Positions 2,755 through 50,336 of a DNA stretch of 64,000 nucleotides are shown here, one piece after another. Position numbers and translations under genes: made by a program. The notes under the pieces are model-generated. The model had not been told where the DNA came from, did not search any database, and worked only from the letters and a program-made list of their open reading frames with translations. The stretch comes from Octopus vulgaris (lineage: Eukaryota). Positions within the stretch are counted from its first letter, which is position 1. Every line of letters begins with the position of its first letter. The stretch covers positions 11,098,001 to 11,162,000 of the forward strand of contig OX597825.1 of NCBI GenBank assembly GCA_951406725.2, read 5' to 3'.

Positions 2755-2824
2755 GTATGTGTGTTCATATATATATATATATATATATTTTGTTGAATTT
2801 TCTTGTACATATGTATATATATAT

Positions 2825-2857
<33 letters not shown>
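2477..2857. repeat. Interrupted (TA)n microsatellite
   Basis: Direct inspection. Confidence 0.97.
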
Positions 2858-3643
2858 AAGTTGAAAGTGGACTAAATCTTTCATATCCCACCAAGCAGAT
2901 AAGAACACCTTATGTGGGCGAAGATCTTCTTTAGCCTGAGGTACTGGTGTGTCTTCTTTCCCAACCCACTGTCTTCGACACTGAACATCTCTATAGAGAA
3001 CCCATTTCTCATCACCAGTCACTATTTGGTCCAAAAAAGATTCATCTGTGAGATGTGACAGCAAAGAAGAGCACACATTCACTCTCTGCATGTGATTAGA
3101 CTCGCAAAGTTTGTGACCCAATTTGCTGACTTTTCCAATGGCACACAGGTGTTGATGAATGGTTGAATGACTAGATCCAAGCTTCTCTGCTAGTTCCTCA
3201 ATAGTTACAATGGGATTTTGTTCCACCAGGGTTTGCAGGATGTCCTTGTTGAGCTCTACAGATCTTCCAGGATGCAGCTTGTCTCCTGTGCTGTAGTTTC
3301 CAGTTCAGAATTTCTTGAACTACTGCTGATACTGGCTTATGCTTATTATCCAGTTCCCACATACTGCATAAAAATATTCCTCATACTTTCTGTTGCGTTG
3401 TTGCTTTTATGGAACTCATAAAGCAAAATATGCCAAATATGTTCCTTTGTTACTTCCGTTATAGCTTTGAAAAAATAACTGTTAAAATTGAGCTGCACTC
3501 TTCAAAACATGCATTAAGAATAAGGACAAGGTAAAATTACTACCTGATTTTATAGCAAGTCAATGCAGGTAGTTTATCCTGTCCCCCTCTGACTTTTAGT
3601 TCATGCAATTGAAAAAACTGCTTTATCTATGGGATGATCCAAT
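2858..3643 (-). mobile_element. Mariner transposon 5' half with decayed transposase
   Basis: ORF 2765-3226 has HTH (TIEELAEKLGSSHSTIHQHL), IVTGDEKWVLY and [12 protein letters not shown]; mariner-like terminus tattggatcatcccata near 3643; truncated by the TA run. Confidence 0.9.
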
Positions 3644-41667: not shown

Positions 41668-41754
41668 TATATATATGTATATGTATATTTATATATATGT
41701 ATATATGTATATGTATATTTATATATATATGTATATATGTATATGTATATATTT

Positions 41755-43655
41755 ATTGATTGCTTCAAGGTCTGCTGTTAAATTTACACTGGTGGATGAC
41801 CATATCTGTGGGCAGTAATCCAGGTGGCTGAGAACGAATTTCTGCCAGAGGTCCCTCACTGATTCAGGCTCTGGGATTGAAATTCCCTGTAGACCAGTAT
41901 ACCCTGTAAGTTTCATATTCAGTTTTGGATGCTGGTAGAGCAGGGCTTGGAAATTTTCAGCATTAAACTGCACATTATTATCCTCAGCCCATCTGTAAAT
42001 TGAGTCCGACTCCTGCTGCAGGTGTGCAACATTGCTGGGGTTCTGTATTTTCTGCAATACTTTCATATCTGCATATTTTGCAAGGGTGGCTATCCAGGCT
42101 GGTCCCATGACAGTGCTCTGTGGAACACCGCTCACTATTTGTGTATTCATAGAGGTGGCTCCATTAGCCACTACTGCCTGACTCCTATCTTTCAGAAAGT
42201 CATGTAACCACTCTCCAAGTTTTCCAGCTATGCCAAGATCATGCAGTTTGTGCCATACCATATCATGATCCACCTTGTCAAAAGCTTTTGTAAAATCAAG
42301 GTATATTACATACACATGTGATTTGTTGAGTAACTGCCTCAACACCCAGTCATAATGTTATAAGAGTTGGGTCAGGCAGCTCCTACATGGTCGAAAGCCA
42401 TGCTAGGTATCACTCAGCAAGTTATTTTCTTCAAGGAATGCAATTAGTTTCCCTCTGACTATCCGGTCCATGACTTTGCTGATGTGTGAAGTCAGAGAGA
42501 CAGGCCTATAGTTTTTGGCATCTGCTCTGCTTCATCCTTTATGGATTGGGTATATTATTCTCTCCTTCAGCTTGCTTGGCAGTTTGCCATTTGCAAGAAA
42601 GCTCTGGAAGAGAATCTGGAGAGGTTTTGCCAGGGCATGCTTACACGATTTGAGGAGGATTGCTGGGAGACCATGAGGACCAGCAGTTGAGTTTGTGTCA
42701 ACTTCATCTATGGCTAGTAGTATATCTTCTTCGCTAATGTCAATGCATTCCATTGTAACTGCCTTGCTGGTTATAGGTGAGGTGGCAAAGAAGTCCACTG
42801 GTTCGTTCAGTTGTCTGTGTTCCAACAGGGTGGTAAAGGCACTTTTGAACTGGTCATTCAGTATCTCACTGATCTTAGTTGAACTGTCTGTGAGGGAGCC
42901 ATCCTTTTGGAGGAAGGGTCCTATCTTGCAGTGTACTGAGGCTGTTTCTTTCGCGTAATGAAAGAAGGCCTTTGGGTTTGACTTAATGTTTTTTATAACC
43001 CAGGCTTCTTTGTCTGCTTTCCCCTTCACATAGGATTGTTGCAGCCTTTTTTCGACCTCCATCAGTGTTGTTTTTAGGTGGGACCTTTCGATGCTTTTGG
43101 GATGTTGGTTGAGTCGATTTGCAACCTTCATCTGTCATCTCATGTTTTGGCCTTGTACTCTGGGACATATTTCTGGCATATGGCTTGCACAACAGACATG
43201 AAACATTCTAGTTTCATGTGAATGTCCGGTGTGGAGAGACATTTTGACCAGTCCTCTCAGAGGATCTCTTTTTTGATCGATTTCCAGTCTGTTTTGTAGA
43301 ATTTCAGATTGGAGAGATTTTGGGTGCTTCCTTTAGGCTGTATGTCTCTGGTTACTTTCGGCCCAAACATAGACAGCTCTATTATGTTGTGATCTGAGAC
43401 TAATGTCAGCGTCACTTTCACATCATGAATGATGTCCATATTGTTCGTGAAGCAGAGATCCAGAATGTTATTCACCCTAGTTGGTCTGAGTACAGCTTGC
43501 TCCATGAATAGGGCATTGGTATGGTTGAGCAGGGACTCCACCTGTGCTTGCTTGCAATGAGTCATTCCTGAGAGTATGAGACCTTTAGGCCATTTAACAT
43601 TGGGGAAGTTGAAATCACCCATAAGAAATATGGTCATGTGATATTCCAGATTCAT
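41755..43655 (-). mobile_element. CR1-group LINE ORF2 pseudogene (APE endonuclease end to post-RT), inverted segment
   Basis: MGDFNFPNVKW, PTRVNNILDL, SDHNII (endonuclease); NPKAFFHY; YLDFTKAFDKVDH, GVPQS, YADM (RT). Confidence 0.93.
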
Positions 43656-43937
43656 GAGGCTTCAGAGGTCCACAGCTCTTCAATATCCTCCCGAAGGACC
43701 TGAGACACCTGCATGGGTGGATGTAGGTGTCTTGAAAATAAAGCTGGACCTCAGGTGTCCCAGATGAACCAACTTCGCAGCTGGAGGTGCAGATGAGGGC
43801 AGCTGCATCAAACTCTCTCATGCACCAAATATCAATTGCTAAAAAGCATTTGTGAAGTAAAATTATGTCAGAACACCAAATGGCGGTGCCTCAGCATGGC
43901 CACAGCTCATGAGCTGAAACTAGATGAAAGAAAAAAA
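43656..43937 (+). mobile_element. 3' end of the same type of CR1-group LINE, opposite orientation
   Basis: GFRGPQLFNILPKDLRHLHG...VPDEP, 3'UTR ggcggtgcctcagcatggccacagc, A-rich end. Confidence 0.9.
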
Positions 43938-44146
43938 TGTATATATATATATATATATGCCATGTTGGCTGCAGTTTCTAGCATGTAAAAATTACCTGTG
44001 AAAGGGTAGTTTTCTTTTGTGTTTAACTGTACACTATTTTAAAATATGAATATGTTGTCTGTTGACTATTTATACATGCTAGGCCACTGGTGGTGATATT
44101 TATATCGAATATTCGCTACCCTATATATGTATCGTATATATATATA

Positions 44147-44527
44147 TGTGGAGGCACAGTGGCCAGTGGTTAGGGCATCAAACTAGCGGTCGTAGGATCG
44201 TGGTTTCGATTCTCAGACTGAGCATTGTGAGAGTTTATTGAGCGAAAGCACCTAAAGCTCCACGAGGCTCCGGCAGGGTGTGCTGGTGAACCCTGCTGTA
44301 CTCTTTCACCACAACTTTCTCTCACTCTTTCTCCCTGTTTCTGTTGTATCTGTATTTCAAAGGGCCAGCCTTGTCACGCTCTGTGTCATGCTGAATCTCC
44401 CTGAGAACTACATTAAGGATACATGTGTTTGTAGAGTGCTCAGCCACTTGCATGTTTATTTTACAAGCAGGTTGTTCCGTTGATCAGATCAACTGGAACC
44501 CTCATCATTGTAACTGATGGAGTGCCA
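44147..44527 (+). mobile_element. tRNA-derived SINE (family D), tail type 2
   Basis: Head colinear with the 10546 copy, unrelated 3' half, TA flanks. Confidence 0.8.
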
Positions 44528-44528
44528 T

Positions 44529-44564
<36 letters not shown>

Positions 44565-44566
<2 letters not shown>

Positions 44567-44966
44567 GCATGATCGTTACCAGTGTCACCTTACTGGCACT
44601 CGAGCCCCGTGCTAGTAGGGTATTAAGAGCACCATCTGAGCGTGATCATTGTCAGAGTGGCTATCTATGAACGTAAAAGACACCATTTGAGCATGATCAT
44701 TACCACATCGCCTTACTGGCACCTATGCCGGTGGCATGTGTAAAAGATTCGAGCGAGGTCATTGCCAGTACCACCCGACTGGCCCCGTGCCAGTGGCACC
44801 TAAAAAGCACCCACTATACTCTCGAAGTGGTTGGCATTAGGAAGGGCATCCAGCTGTAGAAACTCTGCCAGATCAAGATTGAAGCCTGGTGCAGCCATAT
44901 GGTTTGCCAGCCCTCAGTCAAATCGTCCAAGCCATGCTAGCATGGAAAGCAGATGTTAAACGATAA

Positions 44967-44970
<4 letters not shown>
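44565..44970 (+). mobile_element. Family C element with diverged tandem units
   Basis: Repeated gagc.tgatc.tt.cca units, core, gat tail. Confidence 0.88.
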
Positions 44971-45019
<49 letters not shown>

Positions 45020-45334
45020 TACACTCTCACACCACACAAACACCTTGCATAAATACATATGTATATATTTTATCTTATAGATTATACATAGATCAACAAC
45101 AACCTTCCGAATTATACTGGTTATGGCAGCAATATTTCTCGAGTAAATATAATATTGAATTTTTTCAGATTGGGTTTTCTATTAAATATTTACTTGATGC
45201 TGAACTTTCATGTGTTGTTTTCCAGTATTATTATTTAGTTGTAAATCCACCATGTGTTTTATGATGGAGCCTTTATTTTGAGAGAATAAAGTTAGCTTTC
45301 CTTTCCTTTTTTTATTTTTTTCTTATTTATTCAG

Positions 45335-45399
45335 TGATATTTGAAACACTGGAGAACATCTGGAGGATTGTTGATTTATCAGAAGATTATACCACAAAG
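45335..45399 (+). other. Possible 65-nt internal exon
   Basis: Long polypyrimidine tract plus ttcag acceptor, open frame IFETLENIWRIVDLSEDYTTK, weak donor aag|gtttca. Confidence 0.25.
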
Positions 45400-46333
45400 G
45401 TTTCACACATTGTGTAATCTTCAATTTACTACATTTGTGATACTAAACCAATCCATCTCATACTCCACTTTTCTAATATATTATTCAGAATTCTTAAAAT
45501 ATTATGCACAATGGAAACCCAAAATTGTTTAATATGCATCAGTTGTTATAAATTATATGCTTAATTTAGCGTAAAAATAATTTTTTCTATATGATCATTA
45601 TACAACTCCTCTCCATGCAGATGAATTACACATGAGACTATGTGGATGAAACATCAATCTGTTGGTTTCTTTTTATTTCATATATTTGTATCCTAATTGT
45701 AGTCTTTGCACTTATTATGTGTGCTTGAGTTGACAATATCTATTACTGTATTTCCCTCTGGATAACATTGTCAAAGCAATAAGGTCATACTAAGGACTGA
45801 GTGGTATAATGTCTCTTTGATGACCAGTCGAGGTTTGTCTGATGGGAGTGAATGCATTTTGCTGAACTAGACACGGGGAAATGCATTATCCATTCATGTT
45901 CTTGTGCATTTATTTGTGTACGCATTGCACATGCACACAAACACACGCACTCACACACACTTTCTCTCAATTTATGATGTATGTATGTTTATGTATATGA
46001 CTATATAATATTTAAAGTAAATGGATTTCATGTTGGTTTCAATCCCATGCAATAGGAAAATAACCTAGCTTGTGACATGGCTATTCCTTTGAGGTATATA
46101 TATACAATCCAGCCTATTCCTTTGAGATATGTATAGTCCACATGTGGGTGTATATCAATTTGTTGTAAGTTGAATTTTCGCAAATTATTAAGTTAAATTT
46201 CTCATTTCCAATCTTTAGATGATTCTATGAAATTGAAAAAAATTGTAAATAAAATGTATGCAGATTTTGAATAAAATGGCATGCATTGAGAAAATGTAAT
46301 GGTAAATATTTGAAAGATATTAATATTCCTTTA

Positions 46334-46530
46334 CGGAGATGTACTTGCATAGCAAGTGATCTGATCTGAGATCGTGTGCTGAAACGAAAACAATTGCAGC
46401 GTGGAAGGTGTTTGTAAGCCATTTAAGAAACACACAAAAGCCGTTCGATTCACTTCAACATTTAAGTTTAATTTGTCAAAATATTTTCGTCGCTTTAAGA
46501 CTGCGACCTGTTCACTGACAAAAATCCGTG
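46334..46530 (-). mobile_element. Short hammerhead-bearing element, probably derived from a Penelope pLTR, with 14-bp TSD-like repeat
   Basis: ttaatattcYttta at 46320-46333 and 46531-46544; CpG-rich interior. Confidence 0.7.
46472..46522 (-). ncRNA. Minimal type-I hammerhead ribozyme variant (G3/C8 core)
   Basis: Minus strand UUUGUCA GUGAACA G GUCGC AGUCUUAAA GCGAC GAA AAUAUU U UGACAAA: 7-bp stem I, 5-bp stem II, GAAA, palindromic stem III. Confidence 0.65.
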
Positions 46531-47208
46531 TTAATATTCTTTTAATTGTACTAATATTATAAAACTATCTTATACATAGATAAATTAGTTCTGAGGTCAA
46601 TTAGTTCAATTAAATCATTCAAAGCAATACTCCAGTATTGGCTGAAACAAATAAAAGGTATGTTTTTTTTCTTCTTTTTTTTTTGTAACAAAGCTGTTAG
46701 AATTCGGATTTTGGGAGCAGGGGAGCTTTCATGCTGTTTCTGTCCATCAAATTTCATTCAAGGTATTAATCACTTCAAGTCTAGAGTAAAAGAGTAGCTA
46801 AAGGTGTTACTTGGTGGGACCTAACAAAGAATCATATGATTACAAAGCAAACATTTTAACTATAGAGCCATGCCTGCCCTTATATTACTAATACATCGGT
46901 CAACTGCTATACTTCATTCACTGGAACTGTAGATTCAAAACTAGCCATATGACTTTTCTCTGCTATGAATATAAGGATGTAACGCTACATGTTAAGATTT
47001 GCTCAGGCTTAACCAACACAGTTGTACAGCAGCAGAATAATATTATAGGTAGATTAGGTCTTTGATTTCATTTCATAGTTAAGATTGTTTACTTTTTTGG
47101 TGTAGAGTGAGAAATAATAGATACCAACTCTTGAGCTAGAAGAGGTGAAAAATGTATGACAAGAGCTGCAGCTTTCAGAGAGTTTGTCTCCCAAGACTTC
47201 ACATTTAA

Positions 47209-47429
47209 CCCTTTGGTGTTTAAGCCGGCCATATCCGGCCCAAATATCCAACATGTTTTACATTCAAACTGGCCATATCTAGCCCCTTACACCTAACCTA
47301 CATTGACATTCTAAGAATAAACTATCACACCATCGAAACTTCAAAGCTGTAAGATAATGTATGATTAATTGGAAACAATTTGAGTGAAAAAAGTATTACA
47401 TTTAACAGATTAAGCTGAACACTAAAGGG
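47209..47429 (-). mobile_element. piggyBac-type MITE (221 bp)
   Basis: TTAA flanks, CCCTTT/AAAGGG ends; reverse complement of the 13251 family. Confidence 0.88.
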
Positions 47430-47479
47430 TTAATACTACACATGTGGACTTGTACACTATTTAAAGAATCAATTTTGAA

Positions 47480-47760
47480 AGTGATTATACATGTCATGGT
47501 TTTCTCTGTGTGTGTGTTGAGAGAAAAATTGGACATAAGAGGCTTTAAATGTAGTGTGCAAGAGAGAAGACTGTACATAGTATGGTCGTATGATGCACAT
47601 GCATGAGGACAGCTGCATAAAGAAGTGCTGATTGCCAAATGTGGACAGAACCTGTGGAAGAGGAAGATCCAGGAAGACAGGGGATTAAATGGTGAAGAAT
47701 GATCTCCTGATGTTGAGCCTCATGGAGGAGATCATAAAGGATTAAGATATGACTGGCAGT
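47480..47760 (+). mobile_element. RTE LINE 3' fragment
   Basis: LREKLDIRGFKCSVQERRL and GRGRSRKT motifs. Confidence 0.7.
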
Positions 47761-47974
47761 TTGCTGTGACTAACTTACCCACTCATAACACTCCTCTTTA
47801 TTCACTTTTTTGTAACCTGAGTCTTCACCACCATCCTCCATCTCTTCCAACTGGGTAACCATGTATCTCTCCTATAAACAAGATACCTGTTCCTGTCCTT
47901 CTTTCATACTTTAGCATCTCATCACCTGGCATACATAATACTACCTCACTCAATACTACTCCACCCACCCCAGT

Positions 47975-48203
47975 TGAAGGGTCTTGACATGTCTTGTGAG
48001 TTACTTGGAAACCTTACTAGTGTCAGTACCACATATAAAGCACCCAGTTCACTGTAAAGTGGTTGGGATTAGGAAGGGCATCCAACCATAGAACCCATAC
48101 TAAAGCAGATATTGGAGCTTGGTGCATTTCTCTAGCTCACCAGCCCCTGTTGAGCCACCCAACCCATGCTTGTGTAGAAAACGTGTTAAATGATAATAAT
48201 GAT
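47975..48203 (+). mobile_element. Older family C copy
   Basis: Core and ccaacccatgc tail. Confidence 0.7.
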
Positions 48204-48729
48204 TGTGTGTATGAGGTTAGAAGTATATAGGAGTGGAAATAGTCTGAGATGAACACAGGTAGCCTTTTACTGTCTGTCTTCTAGTAATACTTCTTGCATT
48301 ATCACTCTCATTTTTCTCTCCAATTCCACATTATCATCCCAATCACTCTGCTGTCCCCTCCATCATCCTCTTGCTTCTTTCTTATTAGAAGAGCTAAATT
48401 AAATTAACTCGTACATACCTGGCTATGCACAAAAAATTGTGGTGCACCTGAGCACTGTTTACAATAATTTCATTATTATTATTATTATGATTTTGTCTTC
48501 TGTCCTCTTCTACTCTCTCTCTGTCTCTCTCCCCTTTTGATCTCATTGCCCTAAATGAATGGAGACAATACAGAGCAATTAAAGACTCCTTTTCTTTTCC
48601 AAGAAACAAAGCAACCTCAATAATGCAGGTGCTACAATAAAATGCATTATTTATACTCTGTAATGTGGTTGGTAAATGAGTGGAGACAACAGTGTTGAGA
48701 GGACCCTAATTGAAGGTGTGACAAACTTT

Positions 48730-48945
48730 CTATTGCTGATAGAGGTAGTGTTATGATAAAATGCACCGGGTGCCATTCTGTAAAGTGGTTGGTGTTAGGA
48801 AGGGTATTCAGGCATAGAAACCACGTCAAAATGTATGAACAATACACAGTCCCCTAGGAGAGTGGTAACTCCGATTAAGCACTGACTTGGATCGTGCTAC
48901 CCTTCCAATCAATGCTATCATGGAAAGTGAGCATAAAATGATGAT
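48730..48945 (+). mobile_element. Older family C copy
   Basis: gtaaagtggttggtgttaggaagggtattc core, gat tail. Confidence 0.6.
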
Positions 48946-50336
48946 ATTCACAATCACACACACATGTGTGTGTGTGAGTATTGGTTGATGCTGATATGAA
49001 CTGCAATTCAGTGAAAAAGTACTCCCAAATGTTACACAAGGAAAATAACATTTACACAAAGCTGAGTCTTTGAGTTACTTACTCATAATAGACATTCCTA
49101 GCATGGGCTACTTGTCAACCTAATTTAACTGTATGACTATTGAACACACAAAGCTTGTTATTCATGCTAAACTCAGGCTAGCTCTGATCAATCGGACTTA
49201 ATGTAAAGTAAGTTAATCTGCTAGCCAAACAAATATTTTATTTAGAAGTAAATCTAAGGACTCAATCCACTGATCCCTTTAAAAAATTTTTTTTTTCTTT
49301 TAGTTTTCCTTATGCTCATTTAATATTTAATTTTATGTACAGCATTTGTTTTAATATGTATATACTGATAAAGCTAGTTCCCAGAAAAAGAAACAAAAAG
49401 CACCCTTGTTCTCAGCAAAAATGTAAGAATAAGAAGTGATGTTGAAGTTATCTATATAAGATATTCGGGCATGTATTATTTATATGTTTGTAAATATTGT
49501 TTAGGTGAAAATAATTTCGTATCTTTATTTATTTATTTTTTTCCTGTATAAATACTCAATAGAAATCTTTATTTTCTATATGAAAAAATAAAACTGGTTT
49601 TACTGAAATATATAGATATGAATTTAGCGCATTTTCAACCCACCCTTATTATTTCCTGTGCGTGCGTGAATGAATGAAATCTAGTAAAAGCTCACATTTG
49701 GTTTCATGTGAAATATAAAATTGTAATTCCAAGGGAGATAATTCTTCCAGCAAGTTTTCGTTATTTTTCAATTAAGGTCATGTAATTAAAGAAAATAAAA
49801 AAAAAGCAAAAATAATTTAATTTACTTATTGCTTACAAAAATTACTTCAGTGATAAAACAGGAGCTCAAGTTAAAACAAAAATCTAGAGAAAATCAGAGA
49901 AAAATTGAAGCTTTATTACTTTAACAAAATATTCATTTAACAATTTTGTGATTTCCGAGGAAATTTGAACTGATTTAGTGAAATAACTAAATTATTCATT
50001 ATTTAGCTGTTGTTTCGAGCATAACTAAAGGTGCATATATAAATTATGAAAGATGGTTTTAATTTAAATAGAAACCCTTTAACACAAGCAGTATCAAACA
50101 AGCATAGGTGGTTTCAAATGGATTGGTATAAAAAATAAAAACATTAATAAGCTAAGTTGGGGCATTGTCTGAAAGGATATAATCAATTATACTCTGTACT
50201 TCACTAGTACTTATTTTATCAACCATAGAAGGAAGAAAGACAAATTTAATATGAGCAAGATTTGAAATCAAAATATAAAGGATCATAATCAAATACCACA
50301 CAAATCTACTGTTCTATCAATTCTCCCTGTCCACCT

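What the first reader, a model, noticed from the sequence alone, without database searches (positions are those of the whole stretch)
46334..46530. Short mobile element carrying a hammerhead ribozyme with a compensatory G3-C8 core swap
Seen: the minus strand of 46472-46522 folds as a minimal type-I hammerhead. Stem I is UUUGUCA/UGACAAA, the core is GUGAACA instead of CUGANGA, then one extra G, stem II GUCGC/GCGAC, GAAA, palindromic stem III AAUAUU, and predicted cleavage after UUU. The two core deviations are exactly positions 3 and 8. Established: C3-G8 is a tertiary Watson-Crick pair and swapped pairs can restore activity in vitro; Penelope-associated minimal hammerheads have palindromic stem III and cleave as dimers. 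The motif lies at one end of a ~197-bp CpG-rich insert flanked by a 14-bp direct repeat (1 mismatch), with short inverted ends acgga/tccgt. Inference: a non-autonomous PLE/retrozyme-like family whose ribozyme would be missed by CUGANGA searches. I cannot verify whether this variant is already reported.
Basis: partly seen in the sequence, partly recalled or inferred. Interest (0 to 1): 0.85.

Follow-up and report, generated by a model that had tools for sequence, protein, structure and literature searches.

The report
Swapped-core hammerhead in Penelope retrotransposon
This 197-base insert is a short copy of the front end of an abundant, protein-coding Penelope-type jumping gene, and it carries a hammerhead-shaped RNA motif with two paired core letters swapped across the whole family; it likely still cuts itself weakly, but cutting is untested.

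Summary
The motif is real (minus strand 46472-46522). G3/C8 is the family state, not a private mutation: 6,805 exact 18-base genome matches. It is kept in an older family, whose majority sequence differs from this copy at 0 of 33 constrained positions against 26 of 136 downstream. A sister lineage (54% protein identity) has C3/G8 at the same place, so the pair has covaried naturally.

The insert is a solo pseudo-LTR (5' leader, ribozyme, first ~30 codons) of an autonomous Neptune/Nematis-type Penelope-like element.

Against a strict need for cleavage:
- Unpaired G3/G8 forms recur (292 matches) and were mobile.
- 54 of 74 unselected insertions span the intact motif, and only 2 end near the predicted cut.
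- The youngest sister family has lost A9.

Activity is untested; I put weak dimer- or protein-assisted cleavage at about 55%. I found no published natural G3-C8 hammerhead, but one key paper (Lunse 2017) was not readable. This scan noted G3-C8 before in phages and in two other Penelope-like tails. Verdict: new variant of a known kind.

The parts
46331..46530 (-). Solo pseudo-LTR copy (5' leader, ribozyme motif, first ~30 codons) of an autonomous Penelope-like element; starts 8 bases short of the commonest family 5' end
46472..46522 (-). Minimal type I hammerhead motif with G3-C8 core pair
46509..46515 (-). Core positions 3-9, GUGAACA (G3 at 46515, variable N7 at 46511, C8 at 46510)
   Evidence: sequence; family counts
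46489..46508 (-). Extra G (46508) and stem II (5 bp, G10.1-C11.1) with a loop that varies between subfamilies
46480..46485 (-). Palindromic stem III, AAUAUU (AAUU in the older family C); predicted dimer interface
46478..46479 (-). Predicted cleavage site, after U17 (between 46479 and 46478); not shown to be cut
   Evidence: inference from hammerhead numbering; no clear peak of insertion ends here
46331..46422 (-). Start of the element's reading frame (ATG at 46422, 56 bases after the predicted cut). Its last ~55-60 bases are the optional Penelope 'tail' that inverted partner copies lack
46320..46333 (+). Left copy of the target-site duplication (11-14 bp)
46531..46544 (+). Right copy of the target-site duplication (1 mismatch)

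Best explanation
The insert is a solo pseudo-LTR of an autonomous Penelope-like retrotransposon, and its hammerhead motif carries a family-wide G3-C8 swap that is likely kept by selection and is predicted to cut weakly, as a dimer or with the element's protein.

Shown:
- The motif lies in the 5' leader, 56 bases before the start codon, and so also after the 3' UTR of the preceding copy.
- The swap is the majority state in a young and an old family, while a sister lineage has C3-G8.

Inferred:
- The element's reverse transcriptase primes inside the first codons (the two 'tail' ends) and runs off the capped 5' end of the transcript about 60 bases upstream of the predicted cut. This would make the thousands of 140-205-bp copies, of which this is one, from uncut RNA.
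- Cleavage would need two motifs pairing through the palindromic stem III, as in read-through transcripts of pLTR-ORF-pLTR tandems. It would remove the cap or release unit-length RNA.
- It helps the lineage over long times but is not required for a single insertion.
For: Element identity:
- Walking upstream from the insert leads through a microsatellite-rich 3' UTR into a GIY-YIG frame.
- L095 holds a 1,025-residue open frame with the RT YVDD motif, a cysteine-rich linker and GIY-YIG (Pfam E 1.8e-5).
- In L102 the piece reads on into the frame; this N-terminus matches the sister family's (35% over 97 residues, E 4e-20).
- Inverted partners lack the last ~55 bases, the Penelope tail signature (PMC8557442, PMC11167929).

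Constraint:
- Window copy against the old family C majority: 0 of 33 constrained positions differ, against 26 of 136 downstream (Fisher p 0.003). N7, loop II and the length of stem III changed, and stem III stayed a palindrome.
- The commonest stem I variant turns U-A into U.G (12 of 105 copies).

Covariation:
- In the same 16-base context, C3/G8 gives 343 matches, G3 with a non-G at 8 gives 8,769, C3/C8 gives 46 and G3/G8 gives 292; controls 2-6.
- The C3/G8 lineage also swaps a stem II pair, G-C to A-U.

Run-off:
- 40 of 74 unselected copies begin 55-66 bases upstream of the cut.
- 25 of 32 short copies have G before the start, where 29 of 32 long copies have C.

Literature: a C3G/G8C double mutant partly restores cleavage in a Penelope hammerhead, which needs its protein (PMC11167929).
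Against: - No cleavage was measured, and no raw RNA reads were available.
- G3/G8 is about 3% of copies (292 of ~9,060) and six times commoner than C3/C8. It occurs on several subfamily backgrounds and is shared by both arms in 5 inverted pairs that I picked for that reason, so such templates transposed.
- Among 40 long copies not chosen on the core, position 8 was the most variable core position: C 33, G 4, U 2, gap 1.
- Only 2 of 74 insertion ends lie within 3 bases of the predicted cut, both ambiguous.
- The young sister family B has C in place of A9 in 20 of 20 copies, and family D's stem I is imperfect next to the core, so core decay is tolerated in this clade.
- The double-hammerhead dimer (-23.8 kcal/mol) is less stable than two monomers (-26) or an alternative dimer (-28.6), and the monomer pairs G3 with U17.
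- The extra base is G, outside the published H consensus.
- Family C copies were found with a query that holds the motif, so some ascertainment bias is possible.
Confidence: 0.55

Rival explanations
1. The motif descends from a hammerhead but no longer cuts in cells. Its sequence is kept because it is part of the internal promoter, 5' leader or protein-binding fold just after the transcription start, and G3-C8 is a fixed relic.
For: It lies within the first ~70 bases of the inferred transcript. Insertions come from uncut RNA. G3/G8 templates transposed. Sister family B lost A9. In the anole element, ribozyme-dead mutants inserted normally in vitro and no reads ended at the cut (PMC11167929).
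Against: What changed between families (N7, loop II, length of the stem III palindrome) and what did not follows the hammerhead rules. Two changes at exactly positions 3 and 8 separate the lineages in an otherwise shared context.
Confidence: 0.35
2. The ~200-bp copies are a self-propagating non-autonomous family (retrozyme- or SINE-like) that is mobilised in trans and processed by the ribozyme into circles.
For: Short copies far outnumber long ones (3 of 74 run on upstream). Six of 74 share one inverted junction, so some short composites were copied again.
Against: Short copies carry the same loop II variants as long ones. They begin just after the inferred start site and so lack upstream promoter sequence. 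Among the 30 best loci there was no head-to-tail monomer array; one place holds two direct copies 744 bases apart with inverted pieces between them.
Confidence: 0.08
3. The resemblance to a hammerhead is chance.
For: The fold alone is modest (z -2.24) and Rfam finds nothing.
Against: A canonical CUGANGA core sits at the homologous place in the sister lineage, and the position in the pseudo-LTR is where Penelope hammerheads lie (PMC4209133).
Confidence: 0.02

Closest known systems
Minimal type I hammerheads of metazoan Penelope-like elements (Cervera and de la Pena 2014, PMC4209133)
   Same: Type I layout, extra base between 9 and 10.1, G10.1-C11.1, palindromic stem III, U17 (common in their alignment), position in the pseudo-LTR, thousands of solo copies.
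   Different: The core is G3-C8. Their text reports only the U3-A8 covariation, and none of the 56 aligned representatives has G3. The extra base is G, as in one of the 56.
Hammerhead of the anole Poseidon element PAc (Frangieh et al. 2024, PMC11167929)
   Same: Motif at the pseudo-LTR/ORF junction, internal priming and tail, AT-rich targets; the engineered C3G/G8C double mutant is the core found here.
   Different: There the swap is a laboratory mutant and the motif overlaps the start codon. Here it is the natural family state, with the cut 56 bases upstream of the ATG, in a Neptune/Nematis-type element.
Neptune/Nematis clades of endonuclease-bearing Penelope-like elements (PMC8557442)
   Same: Single frame with RT, cysteine-rich linker and C-terminal GIY-YIG with two cysteines between the GIY and YIG halves; partial tandems, inverted 5'-truncated partners, tail, frequent (TA)n flanks.
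   Different: Variant ribozyme core; I did not resolve Neptune against Nematis by phylogeny.
Non-LTR retrozymes of animals (bioRxiv 10.64898/2026.07.22.740005; PMC7229834 seen as a listing only)
   Same: Short, non-coding-sized copies with a type I hammerhead, related to Penelope pseudo-LTRs.
   Different: No head-to-tail monomer arrays seen; the sequence is the front end of an autonomous element.

Membership tests
Penelope minimal hammerhead (type I) | Stems I and II around the junction, with G10.1-C11.1 | tested here: met
Penelope minimal hammerhead (type I) | Literal CUGANGA core | tested here: not met
   GUGAACA in the window and family; no Rfam match
Penelope minimal hammerhead (type I) | Watson-Crick pair possible between positions 3 and 8; U4, G5, A6, A9, G12, A13, A14, A15.1-U16.1 kept; N17 not G | tested here: met
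   about 3% of copies are G3/G8
Penelope minimal hammerhead (type I) | Extra base between 9 and 10.1 (published consensus H) | tested here: inconclusive
   Present but G; shared with both C3/G8 families; one published precedent among 56
Penelope minimal hammerhead (type I) | Palindromic short stem III | tested here: met
   AAUAUU here, AAUU in family C
Penelope minimal hammerhead (type I) | Located in the pseudo-LTR of a Penelope-like element | tested here: met
Penelope minimal hammerhead (type I) | Self-cleavage after N17 (as dimer or protein-assisted) | not testable with these tools
   No assay; only contigs, no raw RNA reads
Neptune/Nematis-type Penelope-like element | One frame with RT and C-terminal GIY-YIG | tested here: met
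   (GIY-YIG above the Pfam cut-off; RT only weakly matched by Pfam, E 0.07, YVDD motif seen)
Neptune/Nematis-type Penelope-like element | Two cysteines between GIY and YIG, and a zinc-finger-like linker before the nuclease | tested here: met
   read from the L095 translation against the definition in PMC8557442
Neptune/Nematis-type Penelope-like element | Pseudo-LTR tandems, inverted truncated partners, optional tail | tested here: met
Neptune/Nematis-type Penelope-like element | Placement in Neptune or Nematis by RT phylogeny | not tested
   No named reference sequences were in hand
Non-LTR retrozyme | Head-to-tail monomer arrays with no link to a coding frame | tested here: not met
   No such array in the 30 best loci; continuous with an RT-GIY-YIG frame
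Non-LTR retrozyme | Circular RNA intermediate | not testable with these tools
   No raw RNA reads

The most novel reading that the evidence does not exclude
This is a naturally evolved, catalytically active G3-C8 hammerhead that became the fixed core of a whole animal retrotransposon lineage (about 9,000 copies per genome, held by four organism labels), made tolerable by U17 rather than C17. Its C3-G8 sister lineage and recurrent G3/G8 variants in the same genome form a natural mutant series. A whole class of animal ribozymes would then be invisible to CUGANGA descriptors and Rfam.
Probability: 0.5. Interest if true: 0.65.

Novelty: new variant of a known kind. Interest (0 to 1): 0.5.

Why it matters
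The 3-8 pair was proven in the laboratory by the C3G/G8C rescue. The papers I could read report only U3-A8 as its natural alternative. A lineage-wide G3-C8 beside a C3-G8 sister is direct evolutionary support for the pair, and it shows that standard searches miss thousands of motifs in one animal genome. It also bears on an open question: what Penelope hammerheads are for. Here there are young near-intact elements, matched natural core variants (G3-C8, C3-G8, G3/G8, A9C) and a sharp inferred transcript start, so cleavage and its effect on transposition can be compared directly. The limit: it is a variant of a well-known ribozyme in its usual host element, and the data suggest cleavage is dispensable for single insertions.

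Tried and rejected
- Rfam scan of 44000-49000: no hammerhead family among 22 weak matches.
- A look-alike flank in L028 led to an unrelated short repeat; by luck one of those loci held family C.
- A DNA search for sister family B returned nothing, although the query came from this genome (the tool skips very common words). I fetched 20 of its copies by coordinates instead.
- No RNA holder was listed on record and no raw reads were served. The four runs laid were contigs and cannot show RNA ends, strand or level.
- Idea that pair-breaking changes at position 8 are enriched in long copies because dead ribozymes escape cutting: 6 of 32 long against 1 of 54 short (Fisher p 0.01, after the fact, copies not independent). 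It was not repeated in a second sample: long copies were 2 of 33 among G3/G8 and 1 of 30 among G3/C8. Left open.
- Terminal inverted repeats as element ends: rejected.
- A peak of insertion ends at the predicted cut: not found (2 of 74).
- The automatic alignment misplaced the stem III indel, so the comparison was redone with anchors.
- Target-site duplications: a crude script printed a repeat of 7 or more bases for 11 of 30 loci, several only simple TA repeats; not pursued.
- Lunse et al. 2017 and Przybilski and Hammann 2007 were not held. The effect of an extra G between 9 and 10.1 could not be read in any paper.

Full report
1. Observation. The sequence is as described. On the minus strand, 46522-46472 reads as stem I, GUGAACA, an extra G, a 5-bp stem II, GAA, the palindrome AAUAUU, U17 and the second arm of stem I. 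The 14-bp flanking repeat has one mismatch. Folding gives stems I and II at -13.0 kcal/mol (z -2.24; 6 of 200 shuffles as good), with stem III open and G3 paired to U17. None of the 22 weak Rfam matches in 44000-49000 is a hammerhead. The window holds no other copy and no piece of the element's frame.

2. Copy number and core state. The host is a 2.8-Gb animal genome; the best protein hit carries an Octopus label, so an octopus is likely. The 197-bp piece drew 1,054 candidates, and the 40 scored were 96-100% identical. Exact patterns give whole-genome counts. The 18-base G3/C8 pattern has 6,805 matches (control 0). In a shared 16-base frame, G3 with A, C or U at 8 has 8,769 (99 of the first 100 listed are C8), C3/G8 343, G3/G8 292 and C3/C8 46, with controls of 2-6. 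Public contigs under four organism labels hold the stretch. In the four runs laid (one per label), the listed differences cluster at CpG sites, in loop II and at one stem I position. The tally by kind shows no C-to-G place in any run and one G-to-C place, elsewhere, in one run, so neither G3-to-C nor C8-to-G reaches 2%. Twenty rows were not shown, so transitions at 3 or 8 cannot be excluded.

3. What the insert is. One end is fixed and the other varies; many copies have an inverted partner that lacks the last ~55 bases. Longer copies continue through 1.0-1.6 kb of microsatellite-rich sequence into a GIY-YIG frame. [quoted passage not shown] These are the marks of Neptune/Nematis-type Penelope-like elements in PMC8557442 (introduction and passages read). 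An ATG lies 56 bases after the predicted cut (window 46422). In the tandem copy L102 the sequence reads on past the tail into the frame, whose N-terminus matches the sister family's (35% over 97 residues, E 4e-20). The insert is therefore a solo pseudo-LTR: leader, ribozyme motif and first ~30 codons. Arrangements with two motifs on one strand exist (L095, L107), so a read-through RNA could hold a dimer.

4. How the short copies arise (inferred). A pattern downstream of the motif has 8,802 matches. I examined 74 of the first 100 listed, all from the first 28 Mb of one contig. Forty begin 55-66 bases upstream of the predicted cut (one value corrected by hand), 3 run on into the 3' UTR, 54 keep the whole motif, and 2 end within 3 bases of the cut, both ambiguous. 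Where copies reach the peak, 25 of 32 short ones have G just before it, whereas 29 of 32 long ones have C (some are duplicates or abut an inverted partner). A non-templated G from copying an RNA cap is recalled from other retroelements, not tested here. The simplest reading is run-off cDNA from internal priming to the capped start of uncut RNA. This agrees with the anole element, where priming is internal, unprocessed RNA is the main template and dead ribozymes insert normally (PMC11167929, main text read).

5. Is the swap under selection? For. An older family C turned up (the 40 scored loci matched the query copy at 71-80%, apart from itself). Its majority sequence over 30 loci and the window copy differ at 0 of 33 constrained positions against 26 of 136 downstream (Fisher p 0.003). 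N7 changed from C to A, loop II changed, and stem III grew from AAUU to AAUAUU, still a palindrome. Of the 30 loci, 18 parse as G3/C8, 4 as other states and 8 did not parse. The commonest stem I variant in the family keeps pairing as U.G (12 of 105). The sister lineage, 54% identical over 814 residues, has C3/G8 at the same place before its own ATG: family B in 20 of 20 copies, and its older relative D with a full CUGANGA core (most of the 20 loci viewed of 343; the first 16 bases match by construction). Both share the extra G and swap one stem II pair from G-C to A-U. The double mutant C3G/G8C partly rescues cleavage (PMC8495972 passage; PMC11167929). A G3-C8 variant was reported more active with G17 than with C17 (PMC3884650 passage, 'data not shown'), which suggests that avoiding C17 matters with G3; this family has U17.

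6. Against. G3/G8 is about 3% of copies and six times commoner than C3/C8. It appears with several loop and upstream variants, and both arms carry it in 5 inverted pairs that I chose for that reason; in at least 4 other loci only one arm does. Such templates were therefore mobile. In 40 long copies not chosen on the core, position 8 was C 33, G 4, U 2, gap 1, while positions 3-7 were 39-40 of 40. Family B has C at position 9 throughout, and D's stem I is imperfect beside the core. The double-hammerhead dimer scores -23.8 kcal/mol against -26 for two monomers and -28.6 for another dimer. An apparent excess of position-8 changes in long copies (6 of 32 against 1 of 54) was not repeated (2 of 33 against 1 of 30).

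7. Mechanism. Most likely (about 55%) this is a weak, dimer- or protein-assisted ribozyme that trims read-through or capped transcripts, useful to the lineage but dispensable for one insertion. The main rival (about 35%) is a catalytically silent relic kept as leader or promoter structure. The element's identity and the covariation are shown; cleavage, dimer formation and the cap are inferred.

8. Literature and novelty. Cervera and de la Pena 2014 (results, discussion and supplement parts 1-2 of 3 read; one supplementary file not searchable) report U3-A8 as the core covariation and list no G3 among 56 representatives. Perreault et al. 2011 (core-variation section and passages) also report U3-A8. 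Searches for G3C8, G3-C8, C3G with G8C, GUGANCA, and octopus with hammerhead gave no natural G3-C8 case. The 2026 retrozyme preprint (parts 1-2 of 5 read; supplements closed) covers vertebrates, three insects and one anthozoan with canonical and minimal models. Lunse et al. 2017 and Przybilski and Hammann 2007 were not held; the first could hold such variants. Earlier notes of this scan describe G3-C8 in phages and in two Penelope-like tails of other genomes (unchecked); none covers this genome or sequence.

9. Verdict. A real feature and a new variant of a known kind: a Penelope minimal hammerhead with a lineage-wide G3-C8 core, in its usual host element. Interest 0.5.

Noticed in passing
L110:5892-5940 and L135-L154: A very young, high-copy sister Penelope-like family (1,312-residue open frame with a long Asn-rich insert) has C instead of A at hammerhead position 9 in 20 of 20 copies.
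   Followed up: partly
L247-L278: C8-to-G arises repeatedly on different subfamily backgrounds and is six times commoner than G3-to-C; unexplained (mutation hot spot, template switching or selection).
   Followed up: partly
L298, L300, L339, L341, L342, L346: Six of 74 copies share one identical inverted junction 34 bases upstream of the predicted cut, suggesting a short inverted composite that was itself copied many times.
   Followed up: no
L185-L204: Older family D has a canonical CUGANGA core, but its stem I is mismatched next to the core, with an alternative 5-bp pairing upstream.
   Followed up: partly
L101:6647 and minus strand 1074, 1437: A hammerhead-like motif with a U3-A8 core and palindromic stem III, in three copies in one locus; probably another Penelope-like family in this genome.
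   Followed up: no
L061:3695-4734 (+): A second, different reverse-transcriptase frame (FIRYIDD motif, Penelope/Poseidon-like by eye) lies back to back with a family A copy.
   Followed up: no
window 41719-43661 (-): Broken pieces of a non-LTR retrotransposon frame (RT- and endonuclease-like), 2.7 kb from the insert.
   Followed up: no
window 2765-3304 (-): Remnant of a mariner-like transposase frame.
   Followed up: no
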